Assembly: GCF_046105845.1 (NCBI RefSeq)
Contig: NZ_CP151004.1
DNA from: Escherichia coli
GTDB taxonomy: Bacteria > Pseudomonadota > Gammaproteobacteria > Enterobacterales > Enterobacteriaceae
Reading direction: 5' to 3' (one strand)
Length of the DNA stretch: 64,000 nt
Position 1 is the stretch's first letter. Every line of letters begins with the position of its first letter. The position numbers and the translations under genes are program-made. The notes under the pieces were generated by a model, which worked only from the letters and a program-made list of their open reading frames with translations, was not told where the DNA came from and searched no databases. Shown here piece by piece: positions 19,027-29,252 of this stretch.

Positions 19027-19431
19027 CTAAGGACATATAGATGGATCATTTATTTCAAAAGAAAAATCGGACTCCATACTAGATGAGGATTTTTTCAATA
19101 AAGAGGAGATATGATATCCAGATAAAGTTTTAGAATTGTTACCATCAGATATCAAAATACTAAGTTCAGAAACAATATTTACAGGGTTTTTATTAAAAAC
19201 ATCTGACTCTCTACCTGTGTAAATAAAGTATACAATTGGCTTCCGCTCTCCGATATCAAGATGAAAATTATCTCTTACTTTACCATCATAATGTGTTGAA
19301 TTATTGACCGTCGAAATGTTAATAGATACTTTGCATGTATTTACCATGACAATGGAACAAGAATAGAATGGTTGAGATAAACATCCAGCACACAGCGTAC
19401 ATAATAAAAAAAAGAATATTAATCTAGTCAT
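19027..19431 (-). CDS. Small lipoprotein, candidate immunity protein for the upstream PAAR toxin
   Basis: 134 aa, lipoprotein signal MTRLIFFFLLCTLCAGC; 8-bp overlap with the PAAR-toxin gene; AT-rich. Confidence 0.5.
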   Translation of the reverse strand: MTRLIFFFLLCTLCAGCLSQPFYSCSIVMVNTCKVSINISTVNNSTHYDGKVRDNFHLDIGERKPIVYFIYTGRESDVFNKNPVNIVSELSILISDGNNSKTLSGYHISSLLKKSSSSMESDFSFEINDPSICP

Positions 19432-20863
19432 GAAATTTCACCCGAGATAACCATATCATTGCACATACATCGTTTTCGACAGCAACCGACCTTGCATATA
19501 GATCACTGGTGTATATATGCCCATTATAATATTTCATTAAATCTATCTCGCCAGTTCCTGGATAAACTGAATGAGGCAGTGCATATTGAGGTGGTACAAG
19601 ATTAGAGGTCCCTTTATGCTCCCATGAATACGTATTCCCACCGTAACTTTTTAATATCATATGACCAGTCTCATGGGCTACATCAAGTTTAAATTCTAAT
19701 CCAGCCTTAAAAACAGGATCCGCGCCTTTCTGATACCCACGGCCATATTCATAATACCCCCTATTGAAATAAATGTTCATACGTCCCATAAAAGCACTAG
19801 ACCTGACGCTTTCTAGATCTTGCTCCTCAATTAAATCAAAAGAATCCATGGCTGGATCAATATTTATTGATACAGAGATATTTACATTATATTTACCGTG
19901 CGGAGTAGTAATATTATTGCCAATTCCGGGATTCCTCATTCCATTTCGTGCCCAATAATACTCTATTCCATCCTTGGCAAGTTGCTTTAATTTTTCAAAC
20001 CCTACAGGTGCAATACGATCATCTTTATGACTCACACCATCATCTTCAAATTCTACTCGCCAACTGACATCAACTATTTTTTGATTCTTGTCTACTTTTA
20101 CATCAATCCAATCTTCCTCATTCGCAGAAGTTTTCAATGGATAATCAACTTTTATCATCATATCACCACATAAAGCAATCAGTCTTACGAGTAGTGATTT
20201 GCTTTTTAGCTTAGTTGTATCCAGTATGTCTTGATTACTGTAGCCATCCCATTGCCAGGCATGCTCTCCCTTATCAAAATATTTACCGGTCTGCTGTTCA
20301 CTATAAATCACTTCATTACCATCAAGCACTTCCAGAGAAAGCGCTTCAGCCTCATCGCCTTTATTTGTGATGGTAAAATCTATTTTTTCTGTATTCTTCG
20401 TACTACCACCGCTAATCATTTCTTTATAATCAGGTATATTCAATGGCGTCAGTATCTTATTACCTGATAATTTAATTCTGTAATCCAGTTTTACATCATC
20501 TGAGGATGAATCAGAACCAGAAGTCAGATCCTTTTTCGCCGACTGCGCATGTTGTTCCGCTTCACTTCCCCCGTCATCCGTCTCATACACATCATCCATC
20601 ATTGACGCAATAAATCGCGCCTTACACGGGCAACTGCTCTGACTGTCCAGCGATCCCGCCATCAGCCTGCCGTGAATATCCGTTTCCGGCACGCCGCCGA
20701 CGATAATAAACATCCCCGAATGTTTACCGCAGGTCACTCTGTCCATATCCCGCGCCTGCGGGATACCCATGATCGTATGGTCGTCCGCCCCTTCAATAAT
20801 TTTGCCGCCGCAGGTGGTCTTATCGCCCCTGACCAGAAAATAGCCTCTTCCCATCGTCATCAC
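19424..20863 (-). CDS. PAAR-domain T6SS effector with C-terminal HExxH (zinc-metallopeptidase-like) domain
   Basis: 479 aa; N-terminal PAAR-like region (GDKTTCGGKIIEGADDHT...VTCGKHSG...IIVGG), acidic/Ser-rich linker, C-terminal domain with VAHETGHM; AT-rich C-terminal half. Confidence 0.65.
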   Translation of the reverse strand: MMTMGRGYFLVRGDKTTCGGKIIEGADDHTIMGIPQARDMDRVTCGKHSGMFIIVGGVPETDIHGRLMAGSLDSQSSCPCKARFIASMMDDVYETDDGGSEAEQHAQSAKKDLTSGSDSSSDDVKLDYRIKLSGNKILTPLNIPDYKEMISGGSTKNTEKIDFTITNKGDEAEALSLEVLDGNEVIYSEQQTGKYFDKGEHAWQWDGYSNQDILDTTKLKSKSLLVRLIALCGDMMIKVDYPLKTSANEEDWIDVKVDKNQKIVDVSWRVEFEDDGVSHKDDRIAPVGFEKLKQLAKDGIEYYWARNGMRNPGIGNNITTPHGKYNVNISVSINIDPAMDSFDLIEEQDLESVRSSAFMGRMNIYFNRGYYEYGRGYQKGADPVFKAGLEFKLDVAHETGHMILKSYGGNTYSWEHKGTSNLVPPQYALPHSVYPGTGEIDLMKYYNGHIYTSDLYARSVAVENDVCAMIWLSRVKFHD

Positions 20864-22497
20864 TCCTTATGCTGCGTATCACACAGTACCGCTGCCCGTA
20901 CCGGATCGATTGTCACCAGCGTTCCCAGCAGGATTTCCATTTTTCGGTTCAGCAGGGCTTTATCCGCATAGCGGTGCGCCCGCAGGCGCAGCAGTTTCAG
21001 TTGCCGGGCTTTTACCTCAAACAGCAGTTCCGGCTCCCACTGCGTCAGCGTTATTCCCTGTGCGGCGGTATCCAGTTCTTCCAGCAGCAGGAGTGCCATC
21101 TCGTTTTTACCGTACTGTTCCGCCACCCGCGCCATCAGCAGCCGCAATAACAGGCGCTGTCGTGCCGTGGTGATGCCCGGACGGGTCTGTATCCAGCCCA
21201 GCGCCGCTTCCACGCCCTGACTGTCTGCCATCTCCAGTGCTTCCGGCTCCAGCGCCAGTACGTCATTTGTGGCGTCGTCTGTCGGTACAGCGGCTTTCCC
21301 CGCAAGCCATGCGCCGTCTTCCCGCATCATGACCTGCTGCGCTATCCAGTTGCGCGTCACCTCATCGGCGAACGGTGTGCCGTCGTTCCATGCCAGATTT
21401 TCCAGCCCCGGCAGGCGTTCCAGCAGTAACGCCAAGTCCTGACGGATAACGGCTGTCCACCTGTCCCACGGTACGCCCGCCTTAGTCAGCGCCTGATGCA
21501 GATACCACTGAATGTCCAGCCAGAAATGGCTGACGCCGGTGCTGAACATCAGGTCGGCCTGCTCCAGCAGTTCCGTCCAGTTCTGCTGGGCATACAGCCG
21601 CTTAAGCTGATTGCGTGACTCGGTGCGCGGCGGGGCCAGCCGGGTTTTGCCGTCCACATCCGGCGGCAGTTCATGCACCGTGTCCCAGCGCAGGGTTTTC
21701 ATCAGCCGGTGCGCCGAAAGCCAGCCCTGCGGCTGTTCATTCAGATAACGGGCCAGCACTTTCGCCTGGTCGAGCAGGTCACGCCCGGAGGTGATGGTCT
21801 GTACCTGTGGCGCATCCACCGGGGATGACGGTGCAGGAACGCTGCTGCTGTTTTGCGGCACCACTGCGTTCATCCCTCCCGACTGCGCCAGACGCGATTC
21901 CAGCGCGTTAATCAGCGGCATCAGGGAGGGGGAATGCTGGTCTTCGGGCCATGCAGTGAAGGAAACCGTCAACTGACTGAGGGCAGCAACAATGTTCGCA
22001 AAATCCTCTTTTGCCACTTCCGGGTAGCGGGCAAGGCTGTCGAGCATCTTTTCCCCCGCCAGCCACTCCAGCGCCATTTTCCGGCTGGCCGGTCGCGAGG
22101 GCAGCAGTTGCGTACCGAAGCGTTCCACCAGTCCGGTCAGCAGCGCCAGTCCTTCCGCCAGTCCGCGCTCACCGTCGCGGTGCAGTCGCGCCCAGATGTA
22201 GTAAGTGGCGATGCGCACGTCTTTTGCCTGCGTCAGCAGCAGGGATTCGGCAAGCTGGCAGATGAGGTCCGTATCCGCGCCGGAAAGTTTGTTCATCTCG
22301 TCGCGGATACGCAGAAAATCGTCGTGGTAGCCGGGGTCTTCCCCGACCGGCGTATCTGTCGTCACCGGCAGCAGCCATGTCTGCCACAGTGCCGCCTGTG
22401 CTCGCGCCACATCCAGTGCATCCCGGTCGGCAAAACAGCTACGGGTCAGCTTTTGCAACAGTTCACTCATCGGCGTCTTCCCCGTATTCTTCCGCAT
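20860..22497 (-). CDS. tssA: T6SS protein TssA (ImpA-family cap protein)
   Basis: About 536-545 aa (possible start at MSELLQKL); TssA-like; immediately downstream of tssM. Confidence 0.8.
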   Translation of the reverse strand: MRKNTGKTPMSELLQKLTRSCFADRDALDVARAQAALWQTWLLPVTTDTPVGEDPGYHDDFLRIRDEMNKLSGADTDLICQLAESLLLTQAKDVRIATYYIWARLHRDGERGLAEGLALLTGLVERFGTQLLPSRPASRKMALEWLAGEKMLDSLARYPEVAKEDFANIVAALSQLTVSFTAWPEDQHSPSLMPLINALESRLAQSGGMNAVVPQNSSSVPAPSSPVDAPQVQTITSGRDLLDQAKVLARYLNEQPQGWLSAHRLMKTLRWDTVHELPPDVDGKTRLAPPRTESRNQLKRLYAQQNWTELLEQADLMFSTGVSHFWLDIQWYLHQALTKAGVPWDRWTAVIRQDLALLLERLPGLENLAWNDGTPFADEVTRNWIAQQVMMREDGAWLAGKAAVPTDDATNDVLALEPEALEMADSQGVEAALGWIQTRPGITTARQRLLLRLLMARVAEQYGKNEMALLLLEELDTAAQGITLTQWEPELLFEVKARQLKLLRLRAHRYADKALLNRKMEILLGTLVTIDPVRAAVLCDTQHKE

Positions 22498-25400
22498 CCT
22501 TCATACTCCTGCCGGTCAGAAATACCTGTCCCGGCAGGCGGAAATTTTTCAGCTCCAGCAGCGCCATCGGCCCTTTGCCCTGTTCAACCCGCAGCAGGTA
22601 ATTCAGCGGCAGGCCGTCCTGCGCTTTCCACACCACTTTAAAGGTACTGCTGTCCACCGGTGTCACCTGCGCCTGTTCCAGCAGACGAATTAGGCTCCAG
22701 CTTCCCCGGTAATCCGCCAGTATACGTTCCATCGCCTGCGTGCTGGTCCAGCTCAGCGATGCGCCGGGTTGCCACTGTTCATCCGGCCAGTTAAAACGCT
22801 GCCAGCGTTCTTTCTGGTTGAAATACTCCAGTTCCTGCCCGTCAATCACCAGATGTGTTTTCATCACGTCTCGGGCCGGTTTTGCCCGCAGTTCAAAATG
22901 TATTCCGGCATCGCCGCTGGCAAAGGCGGTGTCAGCCACGTCACGCAGGCGGTTCAGGGCGCGAATAAAGTCCGGGTTGACCGTCAGCCCCTGCGTGTTC
23001 ATGGCGTCCGCCACCCAGTAGCGGCCTTCACGTTTCAGAACGCCGGAAAGGTTGGCGGCAATAAACTGGTTGATGCGCCCGTCATCGCGCAGATACTGCG
23101 CCAGCAGGGGGAGGGAAGCATCGTTCTGTGAGGCTTTGAACGGGTAGCGACCAGCGAAGTCCTGATTCCAGTGGCTGACAATCGCCCGCTGCCACTGGCG
23201 GTTCAGGCTGTCCGCCGCAGGCGTCAGCACCTGCCGCCACGACTGCTCCACCGGGCGGACGAACAGCGCCTGACCGAAGCCACTCCATTCCTCGCCCAGA
23301 CTGGCGGCGATTAACCGTCCGTAGTCGCGGGTGTCGGTGAGGTCAACGGTTTTGCCCTGCAAGACTGTCTGCGCCAGTTGTTGGGTCATCTCCTGTGGGT
23401 CGGGGGCGTTGGTCACCTGTTGCAGTTTGAGGCGCACGCGGGTGACGCGGGTCAGATACGTTTGCAGGCTGAGTTGCGTATCGCCACCACCGCCTCCGGC
23501 CTTATCGCCCAGCAAACGCAGCAGCGGCGCGAAGGTTTTATCCAGTGGCCCGACAGGCACGTCGTCTTCACGGGATTGCTGCGGCGTTTTCTCCTTGCCG
23601 TTAAACAGTTCCTGTGCCGATTTCGCCAGCGAGTCCGACAGGCCACGGTTTTCCCTGCCAGCCGCCGCCTGCCAGGCGAGGGTGTCCGTCAGCGCAATCA
23701 GCGGCGACTGACGGGCATCGGCCATCAGCGTCAGCTGGTCGAGAATGCCGGAGAGTGAGTCTTCCTTTTTCCAGCGAATGCTGTTGAGAAACGCCAGCCA
23801 GCTTCCGGCAAAGTCGGTAAAGTAGCGTGAGGTGAGACGGTTACGCAGCGTATCCGGCGAGATATCCGCAGAGGTATCCTGCTGGCGGTCGCTGAGTACC
23901 CAGTCGATTTCCTCGCGCCGCGCCGTCACCACCTGCTCGATGGCTTCCCTGACCTGTCCTTCCCACGCCTGACGGGTGAACATCCCCGGCACCGTCTGTT
24001 CCGTACTGAAAAGAGATTCGGTGAGCGTATCCCCGGTCATGTCCGCCAGCGTCATATCGGCGTAGTTGCGGGACACCTGTTGCAGTACGTTCTGGTAGAG
24101 GGTGTTTTCGGCATTGCGCACACCAATCTGGCGCAGCAGGATTTTACGCACCGCGCCGGTCAGTTCCGGTGGCGGCGAGGTTTTCCACTGCGGGTGTTCC
24201 GGCAGGTTCGCCATCCAGAAGGTCAGCAGTGACGGCAACACGCTCTGACGCACACCTTCCGGGATATTTTCATAGCGCAGGCCGTCCGCCATCAGCGTGG
24301 TACTGAAAAAGGCAGCGTCGGCCTTTTCCGGGCGGGAAGTCATCAGCAATGCCTTAAGCTGCTTATAGCGTTGTTCACCAGTGGCGGTACGCTGAGGACT
24401 GTTGGGCGGCAGCGCGACAAAGGCGTTCAGTTGCTGTTGCAGATGGTCAACGGCCACGTCGCGCACCAGCCGGTTTGCCGCCTGTGCATAGCCAGGAAAG
24501 GCGGCGGCGAGCAGTTGCTGGTTACGTTCAAGGCCAAAACGCTGATACCACGGCGCACCTTCGCGGATACGATATTGCAGGCGCTCCAGTTCGCCCTGCA
24601 GGGTATGCAGCGCCACCAGTTGTTCAGACAGCGGCAGCCGGGTATCAAGCGCTCGTGCAGTCTGGATGCTGGTTTCCTGAACAAGCGCGCGGTTGGCGAA
24701 GAAAGAGGTCGTCATTCCGGCCCCCCATATCGCCAGCATGCAGATGCCGCTTATCAGCGCGGCGCGTAGCCACGGAAAGCCCACTGTACGCCCCCGTGCG
24801 TTATCGCCGGTCACGCCCGCCCAGACCGGTGACGGCAGCCACGCATGAGGTGCGGCCTCCGGTACGGCGGTAAGCGGCGGGCTGAACATCAGACCGCGCA
24901 GGCGCAGGGAAGAGAATGCGCCGCCTGCCAGCAGCGGTTTCAGGACGGTCTGCCAGTGAGCGATACCCCGCTCTGCAAGGGTATGAGCCAGACGCAGCAG
25001 GAAATCATGGCGGTTATCGGTCAGCAGTTGCGACATGCCCTGTTCCGTCAGCGGCAGGGTTTGTGCTTCCAGCATTACAGCCAGTTGTTCCGGGGGACAG
25101 CGTTCCGGCAGCAGGCAGCCGACGCTTTGCAGAGGGCGTCCGGTCTGATAATCACCGTTGTCACAGACCTGCCACAAATAGAGTGGGGCCTGAAAACCGA
25201 GTCGCTTACTGCCGTTTATCAGTTCGCGCCAGCCTTTGTCGAGTTGCGCTGTCTGGCGGCTCTGTTCTTCTGTCAGCGCCCAGATGATGCCATCCAGCGG
25301 ACGGCTGCGACGCAGTTTTTTTAAGGCGGTCAGCAGTGTGACATCAGGCTCCGCTGATGGCCTGCCGCCATATATCAGCACCGTGTGGTCGCCCTCCAGC

Positions 25401-25900
25401 CAGTGTTGCCCGGTCAGCCCCGGCGCGATGGCTTCTGCCTGTTCAGGCTCGCCGGTCACCTGCAGCAGGCGGACTTTACGCCGCCAGAACGGACCGTAGC
25501 GGTCGCGCAGGAAGGCGGCGAGTTCCACCATTGCCGGATGACGGCTGTCGGCTTTCTTTGTCGTCACCGCCCGATAGTCATCCCCGGCGGCAAGCTGTCT
25601 GCGGAGTTCAAAGTTCTGTACGGCAGCGTGGCGGTTCAGCAGATGATAAACCCCCATGATAATCAAAAAGACCACGCCTGCGGCAATCACGCCCGCCATC
25701 CAGTACATCTGCTGCGGGCTGCCCGGCTCGACGCCCAGCAATGCCGGTTTACGGTGAATGAGCGTACAAAGTGCAACCACGACAGCCACGGTCATGACGA
25801 TTACTGGCCCTGAGAGCGAACGGGGCCGGAGACGGCTTAATCCCGGAACCACTATGATGCCTCCTGCGGTAAAACGAACGGCGACACCACGGTCGCCCAT
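22463..25900 (-). CDS. tssM: T6SS membrane-complex protein TssM (IcmF-like)
   Basis: Over 1100 aa with N-terminal transmembrane helices; ORF-track N-terminus (to 26113) is over-extended; real start near 25900 or 25795 (uncertain). Confidence 0.85.
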   Translation of the reverse strand: MGDRGVAVRFTAGGIIVVPGLSRLRPRSLSGPVIVMTVAVVVALCTLIHRKPALLGVEPGSPQQMYWMAGVIAAGVVFLIIMGVYHLLNRHAAVQNFELRRQLAAGDDYRAVTTKKADSRHPAMVELAAFLRDRYGPFWRRKVRLLQVTGEPEQAEAIAPGLTGQHWLEGDHTVLIYGGRPSAEPDVTLLTALKKLRRSRPLDGIIWALTEEQSRQTAQLDKGWRELINGSKRLGFQAPLYLWQVCDNGDYQTGRPLQSVGCLLPERCPPEQLAVMLEAQTLPLTEQGMSQLLTDNRHDFLLRLAHTLAERGIAHWQTVLKPLLAGGAFSSLRLRGLMFSPPLTAVPEAAPHAWLPSPVWAGVTGDNARGRTVGFPWLRAALISGICMLAIWGAGMTTSFFANRALVQETSIQTARALDTRLPLSEQLVALHTLQGELERLQYRIREGAPWYQRFGLERNQQLLAAAFPGYAQAANRLVRDVAVDHLQQQLNAFVALPPNSPQRTATGEQRYKQLKALLMTSRPEKADAAFFSTTLMADGLRYENIPEGVRQSVLPSLLTFWMANLPEHPQWKTSPPPELTGAVRKILLRQIGVRNAENTLYQNVLQQVSRNYADMTLADMTGDTLTESLFSTEQTVPGMFTRQAWEGQVREAIEQVVTARREEIDWVLSDRQQDTSADISPDTLRNRLTSRYFTDFAGSWLAFLNSIRWKKEDSLSGILDQLTLMADARQSPLIALTDTLAWQAAAGRENRGLSDSLAKSAQELFNGKEKTPQQSREDDVPVGPLDKTFAPLLRLLGDKAGGGGGDTQLSLQTYLTRVTRVRLKLQQVTNAPDPQEMTQQLAQTVLQGKTVDLTDTRDYGRLIAASLGEEWSGFGQALFVRPVEQSWRQVLTPAADSLNRQWQRAIVSHWNQDFAGRYPFKASQNDASLPLLAQYLRDDGRINQFIAANLSGVLKREGRYWVADAMNTQGLTVNPDFIRALNRLRDVADTAFASGDAGIHFELRAKPARDVMKTHLVIDGQELEYFNQKERWQRFNWPDEQWQPGASLSWTSTQAMERILADYRGSWSLIRLLEQAQVTPVDSSTFKVVWKAQDGLPLNYLLRVEQGKGPMALLELKNFRLPGQVFLTGRSMKDAEEYGEDADE

Positions 25901-27066
25901 GAATAATGTCCACCCTGAACGCCGCTGAGCGTCAGTTGGGGTTGTTGTAAATGCACTGACGCCAGCGCCGCAGCGGCGACGGACAGCCACGGCGCAGCCG
26001 GGCCGGAGCGCCCCAGAAAGGCATCCAGCTCGTACATCAGGGCTTCCTGAGCAAACGGCTGGTTCAGGCTTAACAACGCGGCACGCTGTTCCCTGTCCAG
26101 TTCGGCAGTCCACATGCCGGATATTGCATCTGGCTGCACCGGCATCCAGTCCAGCGCCTGTGCAATGCCTGACACCATCATCTCTGTATCAGTGATACGT
26201 TCAGGACGATGCAGCAGGGCCAGCGGCGTCAGCGCGGTTTGCGTCAACCGGTTTGCCAGCAACAGCGCGGTGGCGGATTCTGCCGTCCGTTCCGGGTTCT
26301 TCGGTTCAAGTCGTACGGAAATCACCAGCAGTACGGCCTTTTCCTGAATAAAGTTGTCCAGCCAGTCGTCCACGGCGGCCAGCCCCGGCTCCGGGGCAGA
26401 AAACAGACGGGCTTCCGGGAGTCCGGCTTTTTGCCATTCGTCCTGCCAGATAGCCATAACCGTTGACTCAGAAAGCGACGTACTGGTTTCTAAAAGCACG
26501 TTGATATGAAAATCATCGGGTAGCAGCGTCAGTTGCAGCCTGATATCGCTGAACAGACGGGAAAAAACTTCGGATAGACGTCCGGTAACCGGTTTATTGG
26601 TTAATACAGGGATGACACTGCGACGCACAGTATCTTCTCCGCGCAAATCAGCGTAAGTATTCAACACCTGCTGACGCGCCAGAAATGCTGTTGTAGTTTC
26701 TGCAACGGAATCACCATTCAGCGCGGTTTGTACGGAAAAACTGAGTATCTGCAACGCCCGTCGTCCCCGTCGCGTTTCCTGCAAAATCACCTCTTCCCGG
26801 CGCTTATTCCAGGCATCAGCCCGAATGTACTGCGTGATAAAAAACAGCCAGCGAACTGAAGCAACCAGCGACCAGATAAAGGCAGGCACACCACAGGCCA
26901 GCCCCCAGAAATACGGGCCGTTTTTTGCCAGTTCATCGCTGGCAAATAATGAAGTCAGGGCCACACCTGTGGACAGCATCAGTAATAAGGCTGACAGCCA
27001 TTTAATGCGGGCTGGCGGTGTGGGATAGGGTTCTGCGTCGGGAATGGCATGGAGTCGAACAGGCAT
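25852..27066 (-). CDS. Hypothetical inner-membrane protein (two N-terminal transmembrane helices) upstream of tssM
   Basis: 404 aa; hydrophobic segments LSALLLMLSTGVALTSLFA and GLACGVPAFIWSLVASVRWLFFI; GC-rich like the T6SS core; no family recognised. Confidence 0.5.
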   Translation of the reverse strand: MPVRLHAIPDAEPYPTPPARIKWLSALLLMLSTGVALTSLFASDELAKNGPYFWGLACGVPAFIWSLVASVRWLFFITQYIRADAWNKRREEVILQETRRGRRALQILSFSVQTALNGDSVAETTTAFLARQQVLNTYADLRGEDTVRRSVIPVLTNKPVTGRLSEVFSRLFSDIRLQLTLLPDDFHINVLLETSTSLSESTVMAIWQDEWQKAGLPEARLFSAPEPGLAAVDDWLDNFIQEKAVLLVISVRLEPKNPERTAESATALLLANRLTQTALTPLALLHRPERITDTEMMVSGIAQALDWMPVQPDAISGMWTAELDREQRAALLSLNQPFAQEALMYELDAFLGRSGPAAPWLSVAAAALASVHLQQPQLTLSGVQGGHYSWATVVSPFVLPQEAS

Positions 27067-27126: not shown

Positions 27127-27504
27127 TTACTCTGATACATTTATGGTATATATTTTGCCAAACCGTCCTCTGCCACCACCACCTATGGAGAATCCTCCGA
27201 TTTCAATGACTATCGCCCCTTTTACAACAGGGATACCCTGAACAATAAGGCAACTATTTTGGTCTGGCTCAAAAACATCAATAGTCAAACCCGAATTCTC
27301 AGGCCTGAAATCTTTCAATGGAAAAAAAGGTACAGGCCCAACTCCTCCTGAAATCTCGATTTTTGCATAGTAACTCTGACCTAATTTTGCATCAGGCAAG
27401 GAGTCTGGGGAAACAGTAGTTTTTGGGATGATTAGCATATGTAAACATCCAGTTAGTGATATTGATAATGAACATATGAGTAAAAATTGAATTGTCTTTT
27501 TCAT
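27127..27504 (-). CDS. Small lipoprotein (candidate immunity protein)
   Basis: 125 aa; MKKTIQFLLICSLSISLTGC lipobox; AT-rich; in the cargo block downstream of the second vgrG. Confidence 0.5.
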   Translation of the reverse strand: MKKTIQFLLICSLSISLTGCLHMLIIPKTTVSPDSLPDAKLGQSYYAKIEISGGVGPVPFFPLKDFRPENSGLTIDVFEPDQNSCLIVQGIPVVKGAIVIEIGGFSIGGGGRGRFGKIYTINVSE

Positions 27505-28397
27505 GACTTGTTAGTGTCAATGTCAATATAAACCTGATTGGATCTAATGTTAAATTTATCTTCAAGTTTTTCACCCGACATATCAAGATTTAGCAGTAAT
27601 TTTTTAATTCCATCGTCGTTATTATCACCTAAGCATGAATTATCTGGTTCGAGGTGGCTATTATCTTTATTAAAGAAGCATATGTATTTCTGGCTCAATA
27701 GATTAAACATTTTTTTATAGATGCGCTGCCGAACAAGCCATTGTTCATTGACAAACGGATATTCAAGAGTACCTACCTTGTAACGCCGTAAGCCCGGCGG
27801 AAAAGCATATAAAGATTTATTCAAATAAATACTGACAACATACTTTTCCCCGGATTTAATCTCGAACCAGTTTCCAGAATCAGGATCGTCATCATAGCCA
27901 TTACAAAATGAACCCAGAAAATCCAGTCTTGAGTTATCAGTAATAATAAGAAAGTCTTGTTTACATGATGAGGTATATGCCATGTCTTGTTTATTTTTTT
28001 TAAAAAAAGTCAGAAAAATATCAGGAAGATAGAATGAATGGTGGCTTTTATTTTCAAATTCTATAGTCATTACAACTTCTTTTTTAGATTTTTGCTCTGC
28101 AAATAAACGGATAAACATGTTGATTTCAGACTGTAGCTTTTTATTTTCTTTATCATCCAATAAGTATCCTGGTGAGAGGAAAACATACTTCTCATCATCA
28201 CGTAATGGATAAAAAAAAGGTGAGTCAGTTACTATTCTGCTTTCCCCATAACCATAACCATACTTCTTAAAAACCAGTAAGTCATCGGCAATTGAATTAA
28301 GTGAAAACAGCAATAAGAAACAAAAAATTGCATAATTAATAAATTTACTAAATGTATGCAAAATAACCTCCTTCAATAAAAAATCAAAAAAAAACAC
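27501..28397 (-). CDS. Hypothetical exported protein (candidate immunity protein)
   Basis: 298 aa; N-terminal hydrophobic signal-like segment (YAIFCFLLLFSLNSIADD); very AT-rich; 4-bp overlap with the downstream lipoprotein gene. Confidence 0.45.
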   Translation of the reverse strand: MFFFDFLLKEVILHTFSKFINYAIFCFLLLFSLNSIADDLLVFKKYGYGYGESRIVTDSPFFYPLRDDEKYVFLSPGYLLDDKENKKLQSEINMFIRLFAEQKSKKEVVMTIEFENKSHHSFYLPDIFLTFFKKNKQDMAYTSSCKQDFLIITDNSRLDFLGSFCNGYDDDPDSGNWFEIKSGEKYVVSIYLNKSLYAFPPGLRRYKVGTLEYPFVNEQWLVRQRIYKKMFNLLSQKYICFFNKDNSHLEPDNSCLGDNNDDGIKKLLLNLDMSGEKLEDKFNIRSNQVYIDIDTNKS

Positions 28398-28448
28398 AAG
28401 TTACATTTTACTCTAAATATAACTTGATTGATTAACAATTAAAGAAGA

Positions 28449-29252
28449 TTACTCGGGTGGTGGTGGGGGATTATTATCAACTATAATTTTTAAATCCTTA
28501 CTCATGTCCTCTTCCACAGATTTTTTTATATCTATTAAAATCTCTTCATTCAGAGCTATCTGAAAATATTTCTCAACATTATAAGCACTTCTGAAAACGG
28601 CCTGATTGTGTTGACTAACCATTGTTTTTGCAGCAGCCAAATGAGCATCACCACTCATAAATGCCGGTTTCCCTTGCGCATTCATATCATGTGTGCTCAT
28701 TCCACCACCAATACCACCTTTGCCGGTCCTACAAAAATGAGACATTTCATGACACAGCGTTGAAACCTGAGAATCAACACCACATAATGGTTTGTCCTTA
28801 AACTTTCCAGCTATAAAAATATGATAATCTTTATCAATAAATTCATTAACTCTGGCAGTGAAATTCCCACATACCGTATTATTAATATAATAGCAAGTTA
28901 ACACTCCATCCTTATCATATCTGAACATTTGATTATGAATTGTTTTAATCCTCTTGATACCATCCTGCATTATTAACAATGCAGTCTGTTTAGTTTCATC
29001 ATCATCTCCTATCAATTCATCACCTTTGGTGCCAAATATTTTATAAAACTCGCTTATCTCTTTTTCCTTCCCCCCCTTATTCCAACCCTCAAGAGAATGT
29101 TCGCGAATCTCAAGAACTTTTTCTTGGGCTTTGTGTGCTCGTAATATCATCTCTTTAAATTTATTAGTAATAACAACTTCAGCGACACAAATCTCTACAG
29201 TAGCTGGAGCTGGAGCTGGCTTGCCGTTTGATATTTTATTTCCCATATACAT
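28449..29252 (-). CDS. Candidate T6SS effector with HExxH metallopeptidase-like motif
   Basis: 267 aa; LCHEMSHF motif; Pro/Ala-rich ends; 7 bp downstream of vgrG copy B; AT-rich. Confidence 0.5.
   Translation of the reverse strand: MYMGNKISNGKPAPAPATVEICVAEVVITNKFKEMILRAHKAQEKVLEIREHSLEGWNKGGKEKEISEFYKIFGTKGDELIGDDDETKQTALLIMQDGIKRIKTIHNQMFRYDKDGVLTCYYINNTVCGNFTARVNEFIDKDYHIFIAGKFKDKPLCGVDSQVSTLCHEMSHFCRTGKGGIGGGMSTHDMNAQGKPAFMSGDAHLAAAKTMVSQHNQAVFRSAYNVEKYFQIALNEEILIDIKKSVEEDMSKDLKIIVDNNPPPPPE

What the first reader, a model, noticed from the sequence alone, without database searches (positions are those of the whole stretch)
25852..27066. Uncharacterised 404-aa membrane protein immediately upstream of tssM
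Unlike the AT-rich cargo, this gene is GC-rich like the core genes and overlaps or abuts the tssM start, which suggests a conserved accessory component rather than swapped cargo. It has two N-terminal transmembrane helices followed by about 320 residues with no motif I recognise.
Basis: inference. Interest (0 to 1): 0.4.

Follow-up and report, generated by a model that had tools for sequence, protein, structure and literature searches.

The report
Membrane-anchored Tla3-like T6SS accessory protein
The gene just before tssM encodes an inner-membrane-anchored, catalytically dead ketosynthase-fold protein distantly related to the Pseudomonas type VI adaptor Tla3; it is translationally coupled to tssM in many Enterobacterales, with a short gap instead in Pseudomonas and Burkholderia-group loci, yet has never been studied, even in the model EAEC Sci-1 system.

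Summary
A 404-aa ORF lies at 25852..27066 (-), has core-like GC (0.56) and is under purifying selection (dN/dS 0.12-0.25). It has an N-in/C-in two-helix membrane hairpin and a roughly 300-residue cytoplasmic domain.

The family has 331 clusters at 50% identity. In 41 of 46 reference-genome loci (Enterobacterales, Pseudomonas, Burkholderia group) it sits directly upstream of tssM. In Enterobacterales the stop and start codons overlap and the tssM Shine-Dalgarno lies inside its 3' end. Three copies instead head orphan PAAR-vgrG islands. It does not co-vary with cargo.

EAEC 042 has a divergent orthologue, presumably EC042_4538. RefSeq calls the protein 'hypothetical' or 'KPHS_23130 family T6SS system protein', and I found no functional study.

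Best reading (inferred): a membrane-tethered Tla3-like adaptor that links the VgrG-PAAR spike to TssM. It is a new variant of a known kind and easy to test.

The parts
25852..27066 (-). CDS of the 404-aa protein ('T404'; KPHS_23130-family T6SS protein)
   Evidence: ORF list. E. coli orthologues are annotated at the same extent. dN/dS is 0.12-0.25.
26944..27009 (-). Transmembrane helix 1 (aa 20-41)
   Evidence: Hydropathy. AF2 helix 20-41. Two N-terminal hydrophobic segments occur in 88/102 family members.
26833..26910 (-). Transmembrane helix 2 (aa 53-78)
   Evidence: Hydropathy. It is part of the continuous AF2 helix 50-101.
26764..26832 (-). Arg/Glu-rich cytoplasmic stalk helix continuing TM2 (aa 79-101)
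   Evidence: AF2 helix 50-101. There are 8 K/R after TM2. W86, G101 and R103 are invariant in alignment A2.
25879..26757 (-). Cytoplasmic ketosynthase/thiolase-fold, Tla3-like domain (aa 104-396) without a Cys nucleophile
26203..26211 (-). H286-R287-P288, the most conserved motif (R287 invariant), shared with Tla3 (LHRP)
   Evidence: Alignment A1. HMM alignment to 8yz3.
25860..25864 (-). GGAGG Shine-Dalgarno for tssM, lying inside the 3' end of the T404 CDS
   Evidence: Sequence. An AGGAG-type SD sits at the same place in most Enterobacterales loci.
22463..25852 (-). tssM, from the coupled GTG start that overlaps the T404 stop by 1 nt (TAGTG)
   Evidence: Pfam IcmF-related, IcmF_helical and IcmF_C. 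Junction analysis. The coupled start gives a complete TM1.
20860..22497 (-). tssA (ImpA_N + VasJ), part of the conserved T404-tssM-tssA-PAAR block
   Evidence: Pfam. Synteny.
19424..20863 (-). PAAR-domain protein with a C-terminal extension; last gene of the conserved block
   Evidence: Pfam PAAR_motif. Synteny.
27127..29252 (-). AT-rich variable cargo (267-, 298- and 125-aa ORFs) between vgrG and T404; not part of the conserved block
   Evidence: GC 0.32-0.37. No Pfam hits. The cargo differs in L001 and EAEC.
29259..31760 (-). vgrG (Phage_GPD, T6SS_Vgr, DUF2345), a candidate partner
   Evidence: Pfam.

Best explanation
T404 is a conserved, non-enzymatic accessory subunit of Sci-1/T6SS-1-type secretion systems.

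Shown: a two-helix hairpin anchors it in the inner membrane with both ends in the cytoplasm. TM2 continues as a rigid, charged stalk that carries a ketosynthase-fold domain homologous to the soluble T6SS adaptor Tla3. That domain has no conserved catalytic cysteine. In Enterobacterales the gene is translationally coupled to tssM, and the gene is kept whatever the cargo.

Inferred: it is made together with TssM and sits beside the TssJLM membrane complex through its hairpin. Like Tla3, which binds an effector and the VgrG2b TTR domain, it uses its pseudo-ketosynthase domain as a protein-binding platform. This platform would capture or orient the VgrG-PAAR spike, with whatever cargo it carries, at the cytoplasmic face of the membrane complex. 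In short, it would act as a built-in, membrane-tethered spike adaptor rather than an effector-specific chaperone.
For: Anatomy: TM hairpin with K/R on the cytoplasmic sides; AF2 pLDDT 94.8 and pTM 0.89, with helix 50-101 leading straight into the alpha/beta domain.

Pseudoenzyme: the window protein has one Cys, in TM2, and no column of the soluble domain exceeds 15% Cys. The position equivalent to the catalytic Asn/His (353) is variable.

Link to TssM: 41 of 46 genome loci have T404 directly followed by tssM. Stop and start overlap and an SD lies inside T404 in Enterobacterales; Pseudomonas has 9-13-nt gaps.

Link to the spike: the three copies not next to tssM are T404-PAAR-vgrG orphan islands (L007, L010, L021). 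Two of those genomes also have a tssM-linked copy (L021 with L016; L010 with a second, contig-truncated copy L022). In EAEC and two Pseudomonas loci PAAR directly precedes T404.

Not cargo-specific.
Confidence: 0.42

Rival explanations
1. It is a TssM-dedicated assembly or stabilisation factor. It pairs its hairpin with the TssM/TssL transmembrane helices, and its cytoplasmic domain with the TssM cytoplasmic loop. This would promote insertion, oligomerisation or stability of the membrane complex, without touching the spike or effectors.
For: It lies immediately upstream of tssM in 41/46 loci, with conserved translational coupling. It is retained about as often as tssM in E. coli. It evolves with the core block rather than with the cargo.
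Against: Copies in orphan PAAR-vgrG islands have no adjacent tssM (L007, L010, L021). Its only characterised homologue is an effector/VgrG adaptor. TssJLM assembles recombinantly without it (my own knowledge).
Confidence: 0.25
2. It is an effector-specific adaptor or chaperone in the strict Tla3 sense. It would load the effector encoded just upstream onto its VgrG.
For: Homology to Tla3. It lies at the 3' edge of the vgrG-cargo region. Partial extra copies occur inside cargo regions in L030, L044 and L054.
Against: The same protein (95-98% identity) accompanies unrelated cargo: an SLT-type effector in L001, unknown proteins in L002 and the window, and Tle1 next to the divergent EAEC orthologue. 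Its GC is core-like, not cargo-like. EAEC Tle1 binds VgrG directly. Tla3 is soluble, whereas this protein is membrane-anchored.
Confidence: 0.1
3. It is an active membrane-associated enzyme of the thiolase superfamily that uses a non-Cys mechanism, for example a Ser/His-type acyltransferase. It would act on a lipid or on a T6SS protein.
Against: No nucleophile is conserved. The elbow region 195-199 is variable: Ser/Thr make up at most ~51% at any one position, and there is no Cys column. Position 353 (Asn/His in true enzymes) is variable. The closest relative, Tla3, acts by protein binding.
Confidence: 0.08
4. It is a post-translational regulator or sensor that couples the state of the inner membrane to T6SS firing, analogous in role to other Tag regulators.
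For: Membrane anchoring combined with a ligand-tunnel fold. It is accessory rather than one of the 13-14 named core genes.
Against: There is no signalling domain. No partner kinase, phosphatase or Fha is seen in the annotated clusters. Tight stoichiometric coupling to tssM is unusual for a regulator.
Confidence: 0.08
5. It is an immunity protein for the neighbouring cargo effector.
For: It follows effector/immunity-like ORFs and is a membrane protein.
Against: Its large domain is cytoplasmic. It is conserved irrespective of cargo, coupled to tssM and has core-like GC.
Confidence: 0.02

Closest known systems
Tla3 (PA0259), the DUF2875 type VI lipase adaptor of the P. aeruginosa H2-T6SS (PDB 8YZ3)
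   Different: Tla3 is soluble and about 500 aa, is encoded beside its specific effector Tle3, and is dispensable for Hcp secretion. T404 has an N-terminal membrane hairpin plus a stalk, is coupled to tssM, does not depend on cargo type, and does not reach any Pfam DUF2875/Tla3 threshold. [quoted passage not shown] This family is mainly in gamma-proteobacteria.
Condensing enzymes of the thiolase superfamily (KAS I/II/III, PKS ketosynthase/chain-length factor)
   Different: No catalytic Cys anywhere in the domain, and the third catalytic position is variable. Sequence identity is 8-15%. It is membrane-anchored and encoded in a secretion-system operon.
EC042_4538 of the EAEC 042 Sci-1 cluster (382-aa hypothetical protein, WP_001403985.1; locus tag inferred from position)
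   Same: Same position between PAAR/cargo and tssM, with an 8-nt overlap onto tssM. Same architecture. hhalign probability 98.2%, E 2.9e-14 over 338 columns.
   Different: Only about 22% identity. PAAR lies directly upstream rather than after tssA. The LHRP motif is degenerate (LLRP in the alignment).
'Thiolase-like' (IPR040771) proteins of DUF2169/DUF4150 T6SS spike-tip clusters (Proteus mirabilis synteny type A)
   Same: These are another thiolase-like protein class encoded with vgrG/PAAR-like genes and required for effector-dependent killing (PMC11883445).
   Different: The relationship was not tested here, because no sequence was available. The genomic context differs, and no tssM coupling or membrane anchor is reported for them.

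Membership tests
Tla3 / DUF2875 T6SS adaptor family | Match to the Pfam DUF2875/Tla3 domain models above threshold | tested here: not met
   The window protein has no Pfam hit at E<=1. Only 6 of 102 family members hit Tla3_C weakly, best E 0.0016.
Tla3 / DUF2875 T6SS adaptor family | Detectable sequence homology to Tla3 itself | tested here: met
   The family profile hits 8yz3_A at E 2e-5, residues 276-390 vs 297-426, covering the family's most conserved motifs.
Tla3 / DUF2875 T6SS adaptor family | Tla3-like three-dimensional fold | tested here: met
Tla3 / DUF2875 T6SS adaptor family | Soluble cytoplasmic protein | tested here: not met
   Two N-terminal TM helices, conserved in 88/102 members. 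Only the large domain is predicted to be cytoplasmic.
Tla3 / DUF2875 T6SS adaptor family | Genetic pairing with one specific effector (Tle3-type lipase) | tested here: not met
   The same protein occurs with unrelated cargo.
Tla3 / DUF2875 T6SS adaptor family | Binds the effector and the VgrG TTR domain; is not secreted | not testable with these tools
   This needs two-hybrid, pull-down and secretion assays.
Thiolase-superfamily condensing enzymes (ketosynthases) | Thiolase/ketosynthase fold | tested here: met
Thiolase-superfamily condensing enzymes (ketosynthases) | Catalytic Cys nucleophile | tested here: not met
   The single Cys (C58) lies in TM2. No soluble-domain column exceeds 15% Cys across 102 members.
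Thiolase-superfamily condensing enzymes (ketosynthases) | Conserved His-His or His-Asn pair | tested here: inconclusive
   H286 is 94% conserved. The putative second position (353) is H/N/D/R-variable. The residue correspondence was inferred from motifs, not from a superposition.
KPHS_23130 family T6SS system protein (NCBI PGAP name) | Orthology to proteins that RefSeq names this way | tested here: met
   WP_001145246.1 in NZ_OZ501612.1 carries that name and matches the window gene over 100% of its length at 95.4% nt identity. The model is not in NCBIfam release 20.0.
T6SS accessory (Tag-type) component | Conserved synteny and co-expression with core genes across taxa, independent of cargo | tested here: met
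   41/46 loci have T404 followed by tssM. Translational coupling is conserved. Cargo independence is shown.
T6SS accessory (Tag-type) component | Contributes to T6SS assembly or secretion | not testable with these tools
   No phenotype was found in the searchable literature.
Known Tag families (TagF, TagL, TagA/VasL, TagJ and others) | Match to their domain models | tested here: not met
   No Pfam or NCBIfam hit of any kind.
T6SS immunity proteins | Co-variation with an adjacent effector, and location in the compartment where the effector acts | tested here: not met
   Independent of cargo. The bulk of the protein is predicted to be cytoplasmic.

The most novel reading that the evidence does not exclude
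T404/EC042_4538 is a so far overlooked stoichiometric partner of TssM. It would be an extra inner-membrane subunit of T6SS-1-type machines, whose pseudo-ketosynthase domain forms the docking site for the VgrG-PAAR tip (or baseplate) under the membrane complex. If so, the TssJLM-only structures of the model EAEC system lack a native component.
Probability: 0.3. Interest if true: 0.72.

Novelty: new variant of a known kind. Interest (0 to 1): 0.55.

Why it matters
How the loaded spike and baseplate are positioned on the cytoplasmic face of the TssJLM membrane complex is still poorly resolved. This protein is membrane-tethered, homologous to an adaptor and made together with TssM. It is widespread in Enterobacterales, including E. 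coli, Klebsiella, Yersinia pestis, Salmonella, Serratia and Pantoea/Erwinia, and also in Pseudomonas. It is present but unstudied in EAEC Sci-1, the best-characterised T6SS, which makes it an obvious candidate for that job. It also adds a third context, after Tla3 and the thiolase-like proteins of DUF2169 clusters, in which T6SSs use dead ketosynthase folds as protein-binding modules. It extends the Tla3 lineage to gamma-proteobacteria and to membrane-anchored forms. The hypothesis can be tested directly with existing EAEC tools.

Tried and rejected
- Pfam and NCBIfam scans of the protein found nothing.
- Literature searches found no functional study. I searched KPHS_23130, EC042_4536-4538, DUF2875, Tla3/thiolase, ketosynthase-like T6SS adaptors, 'upstream of tssM', 8YZ3, and Yersinia and RefSeq identifiers.
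- KPHS_23130 is only a gene label in a virulence-gene list. YPO0513/0514 belong to a differently organised Yersinia cluster. The Ralstonia paper only notes a variable lipase region upstream of tssM.
- The genome scan with the 102-sequence alignment failed because no stretch was conserved enough. It was repeated with a 13-sequence alignment.
- The afdb50 fold library was unavailable. Model coordinates are not exposed, so I could not map conserved residues onto the surface or superpose catalytic sites.
- The promoter/terminator scan around the gene gave nothing above chance.
- I considered a linker-fused AF2 co-model of T404 with TssM or PAAR. I rejected it because the tool returns no PAE or contacts, so neither outcome would be interpretable.
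- The apparent 88-91% protein identity to E. coli suggested fast evolution. Direct alignment showed 95-96.5% identity and ordinary purifying selection.
- Immunity-protein and cargo-specific-adaptor readings were rejected on cargo independence.
Full report
**1. Observation**

- Its GC content is 0.56 (GC3 0.59). The downstream tssM/tssA region is 0.60-0.62, and the upstream cargo at 27.1-29.2 kb is 0.32-0.37.
- Hydropathy shows two strongly hydrophobic segments at about aa 23-43 and 53-78. They are separated by a 10-residue loop and followed by 8 Lys/Arg in the next 27 residues. By the positive-inside rule this places both termini and the large C-terminal domain in the cytoplasm.
- Neither Pfam-A nor NCBIfam 20.0 reports any family at E<=1.
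- The window is E. coli. A housekeeping flank (gloB-yafS-mltD-rnhA-dnaQ) is 99.3% identical to many strains. The T6SS island is a somewhat divergent allele: 95-96% for this gene and 97% for tssM.

**2. It is a real, selected gene in a sizeable family**

- Against two annotated E. coli orthologues the protein is 95-96.5% identical, with dN/dS 0.16-0.25 (0.12 between the two orthologues). TssM gives 0.09 and TssA 0.10-0.12.
- An exhaustive HMMER search of 1.84 billion representatives finds 331 clusters at 50% identity with E<=1e-3. Nearly all are about 400 aa and match end to end.
- In a 102-member alignment R287 and G352 are invariant. M1, W23, D233, W235, L236, E263, H286, P288, W319, W360 and A366 are at least 90% conserved.
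- The membrane hairpin is a family trait. 88 of 102 members have two strongly hydrophobic N-terminal segments, the median loop is 11 residues, and K/R residues sit on the N-terminal and post-TM2 sides.

**3. What the 'motif-less' 320 residues are**

AlphaFold2 with that alignment gives a very confident model: mean pLDDT 94.8, pTM 0.89.
- TM1 is helix 20-41.
- One continuous helix, 50-101, comprises TM2 plus a ~23-residue Arg/Glu-rich cytoplasmic stalk.
- An alpha/beta domain spans 104-396.

Structure and sequence searches agree on the fold.
- Foldseek against the PDB returns as its top hit 8YZ3, 'Crystal structure of Type Six Secretion System adaptor protein Tla3 from Pseudomonas aeruginosa' (E 9e-10). 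Hundreds of thiolase-superfamily condensing enzymes follow.
- Independently of structure, a profile of the family hits the Tla3 sequence at E 2e-5. The match covers exactly the family's best-conserved motifs, LHRP and D..LG..GAA.P(W/F).
- Six of 102 members weakly hit Pfam Tla3_C.

The domain is therefore a ketosynthase fold, and within that superfamily its closest detectable relative is Tla3.

**4. Probably not an enzyme**

- The window protein has a single cysteine, C58, inside TM2.
- Across the family no column of the soluble domain exceeds 15% Cys. The region where the nucleophile elbow is expected (195-199) is variable.
- Position 353, which by motif comparison corresponds to the Asn/His of true condensing enzymes, is H/N/D/R-variable.
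- H286 and R287 are retained. A non-canonical activity therefore cannot be excluded, but a Cys-dependent condensing or thiolase reaction can.

**5. Genomic context**

In annotated E. coli genomes the order is tssB-C-K-L, tagL (OmpA family), hcp, clpV, vgrG, variable cargo, this gene, tssM, tssA, PAAR, tssF-G-J-E. This is the Sci-1/T6SS-1 layout. The gene is labelled 'hypothetical protein' or, in a recent PGAP run, 'KPHS_23130 family T6SS system protein'. KPHS_23130 is a Klebsiella gene label that appears in a virulence-gene list without a stated function.

Among 5,426 complete E. coli genomes, 952 carry the gene at >=80% coverage and 913 carry this tssM.

Two strains with different cargo were compared: an SLT-type protein in L001, and window-like unknown proteins in L002. 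Their T404 proteins are 97.8% identical, matching their TssM at 97.5%. The gene therefore belongs to the core block, not to the cargo cassette.

A scan of one genome per GTDB species recovered 46 loci. They come from:
- Enterobacterales: Yersinia pestis, Serratia, Rahnella, Hafnia, Budvicia, Pantoea, Erwinia, Edwardsiella, Klebsiella, Citrobacter, Enterobacter, Leclercia, Pluralibacter and Cedecea;
- Pseudomonas;
- Caballeronia and Burkholderia.

Probing these loci with the window's own T6SS proteins shows tssM directly downstream on the same strand in 41 of the 46. They mostly form a T404-tssM-tssA-PAAR block with vgrG 3-7 kb upstream.

The exceptions are informative.
- L007 (a metagenome-derived locus from the context look-up), L010 and L021 (both among the 46) are T404-PAAR-vgrG orphan islands. 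L007 continues with a DUF4123 adaptor and a large effector.
- The genome carrying L021 also has a tssM-linked copy (L016).
- The genome carrying L010 has a second copy, L022, downstream of a vgrG, but that contig ends before any tssM could be seen.
- In the remaining locus, L054, only short fragments match, one of them directly upstream of tssM.
- In two Pseudomonas loci (L028, L034), PAAR directly precedes T404.

**6. The model system has it too**

In EAEC 042 Sci-1 the order is tle1, tli1, tli1, PAAR (EC042_4537; PMC10715212), a 382-aa 'hypothetical protein' (WP_001403985.1, by position EC042_4538), then tssM.
- BLASTP between this protein and the window protein finds only the G.PAAPWL segment.
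- Profile comparison gives 98.2% probability and E 2.9e-14 over 338 columns, with the same hairpin-plus-domain layout.
- I found no paper that mentions this gene's function.

**7. Translational coupling**

In the window the TAG stop overlaps a GTG (TAGTG). GGAGG lies 7 nt upstream, inside the T404 coding sequence.

| Group | Junction with tssM |
|---|---|
| Most Enterobacterales loci | ...AGGAG...GTGA: 4-nt overlap, Shine-Dalgarno inside T404 |
| Window and close E. coli | GGAGG...TAGTG: 1-nt overlap |
| EAEC 042 | 8-nt overlap (ATGAATAA) |
| Pseudomonas | 9-13-nt gap |

- Starting TssM at this coupled codon gives a short basic N-terminus followed by a complete TM1 (residues 14-32 in the window). 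The N-terminal patterns are comparable in other genera.
- The ATG 57 nt downstream, which RefSeq uses in E. coli, would begin inside TM1.
- The 1216-aa longest ORF that reaches 26113 is an over-extension.
- No promoter- or terminator-like signal above chance separates the gene from its neighbours.

**8. Mechanism**

Shown: the protein is an inner-membrane-anchored, cytoplasm-facing, Cys-less ketosynthase-fold protein homologous to Tla3. It is conserved with tssM and translationally coupled to it in Enterobacterales. It does not depend on cargo. When it is not next to tssM, it is next to PAAR-vgrG.

Known from the literature: Tla3 is a cytoplasmic, non-secreted adaptor that binds the effector Tle3 and the TTR domain of VgrG2b, and it is dispensable for Hcp secretion (PMC6560169). 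Other thiolase-like proteins occur in DUF2169/DUF4150 spike-tip clusters (PMC11883445).

Inferred: T404 is a membrane-tethered version of such an adaptor. It would be placed beside TssM by its hairpin, and its pseudo-enzyme domain, held a stalk's length under the membrane, would capture or orient the VgrG-PAAR tip, or the baseplate top, at the membrane complex. I put this at about 0.4.

The main rival is a TssM-only assembly or stabilisation role (about 0.25). The orphan-island copies are hard to explain under it.

Arguments against an obligatory bridging role:
- EAEC VgrG-Tle1-PAAR complexes form without this protein.
- E. coli Tle1 and Tle3 bind the VgrG TTR domain directly.

Cargo-specific adaptor, enzyme, regulator and immunity readings are less likely, for the reasons listed under the rival explanations.

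**9. Comparison and novelty**

It works most like Tla3 but fails several membership criteria for the Tla3/DUF2875 family: no Pfam match, not soluble, and not paired with a specific effector. It has the ketosynthase fold but lacks the defining catalytic Cys. It does belong to the family that NCBI now labels 'KPHS_23130 family', a name that carries no function. I classify it as a new variant of a known kind, namely a membrane-anchored, tssM-coupled branch of the Tla3-like pseudo-ketosynthase adaptors.

Interest is moderate to fairly high (0.55). Nothing here is mechanistically proven. But a widely conserved, uncharacterised gene inside the best-studied T6SS cluster, with a clear structural hypothesis and simple decisive experiments, should interest specialists.

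Noticed in passing
window 25793-25852 (-); L001/L002 13215-13272: The tssM start is probably mis-set in RefSeq E. coli annotations, which use an ATG 57 nt downstream. The GTG overlapping the T404 stop has a GGAGG SD, is conserved as GTGA in other genera, and gives a complete TM1. The ATG would start inside TM1. The longest ORF (to 26113) is an over-extension.
   Followed up: yes
L030 4878-5192; L044 5488-6248; L054 121-504 and 6709-7158: Extra partial copies of the T404 gene lie inside or near the variable cargo regions of Pantoea, Enterobacter ludwigii and Rouxiella loci. They may be scars of cargo-cassette exchange by recombination, with T404 as the downstream anchor.
   Followed up: no
proteins P0040, P0042, P0044, P0055: E. 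coli proteins that join the N-terminal 43-79% of T404 (about 90% identical) to TssA (VasJ), TssF or TssG domains. P0040 is seen on 90 contigs. They look like in-frame deletion derivatives of decaying T6SS-1 clusters rather than functional fusions.
   Followed up: no
window 28449-29252 (-), 27501-28397 (-), 27127-27504 (-): AT-rich cargo with no Pfam hits. The 267-aa protein has an HExxH motif (LCHEMSHF) and a C-terminal PPPPP tail, so it may be a metallopeptidase-type effector. The 298-aa protein has a hydrophobic N-terminus. The 125-aa protein has a lipobox (SLTGC). The last two are candidate immunity proteins.
   Followed up: partly
window 19424-20863 (-): The PAAR protein (479 aa) has an AT-rich C-terminal extension (GC about 0.34 at 19-20 kb) containing HETGH. 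This is another HExxH-type putative toxin domain with no Pfam match beyond PAAR.
   Followed up: partly
window 22463-25852 (-), TssM residues ~80-400: No Pfam hit to an N-terminal P-loop domain in the cytoplasmic loop of this TssM. The place where a Walker A motif is usually found reads VTGEPEQAE, so the NTPase site may be degenerate in this T6SS-1 lineage.
   Followed up: no
L004 36115-36643 (EAEC 042, NC_017626.1 4891115-4891643): A frameshifted 'beta-ketoacyl synthase N-terminal-like domain' pseudogene lies just upstream of the Sci-2 (aai) cluster. It is another ketosynthase-like gene next to a T6SS. Its relation to T404 was not tested.
   Followed up: no
L001 20158-23009: E. coli NRZ96606 carries a second, 5'-truncated tssA fragment followed by another PAAR-toxin pseudogene downstream of the intact tssA-PAAR pair. 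This suggests serial displacement of PAAR-toxin modules by recombination within tssA.
   Followed up: no
window 29259-33302 (-): The window has tandem vgrG-cargo modules with the same layout as E. coli strain 82.0311 (L002): a vgrG, then 296-aa and 205-aa ORFs, then a second vgrG and its own cargo. None of these cargo ORFs has a Pfam hit.
   Followed up: partly
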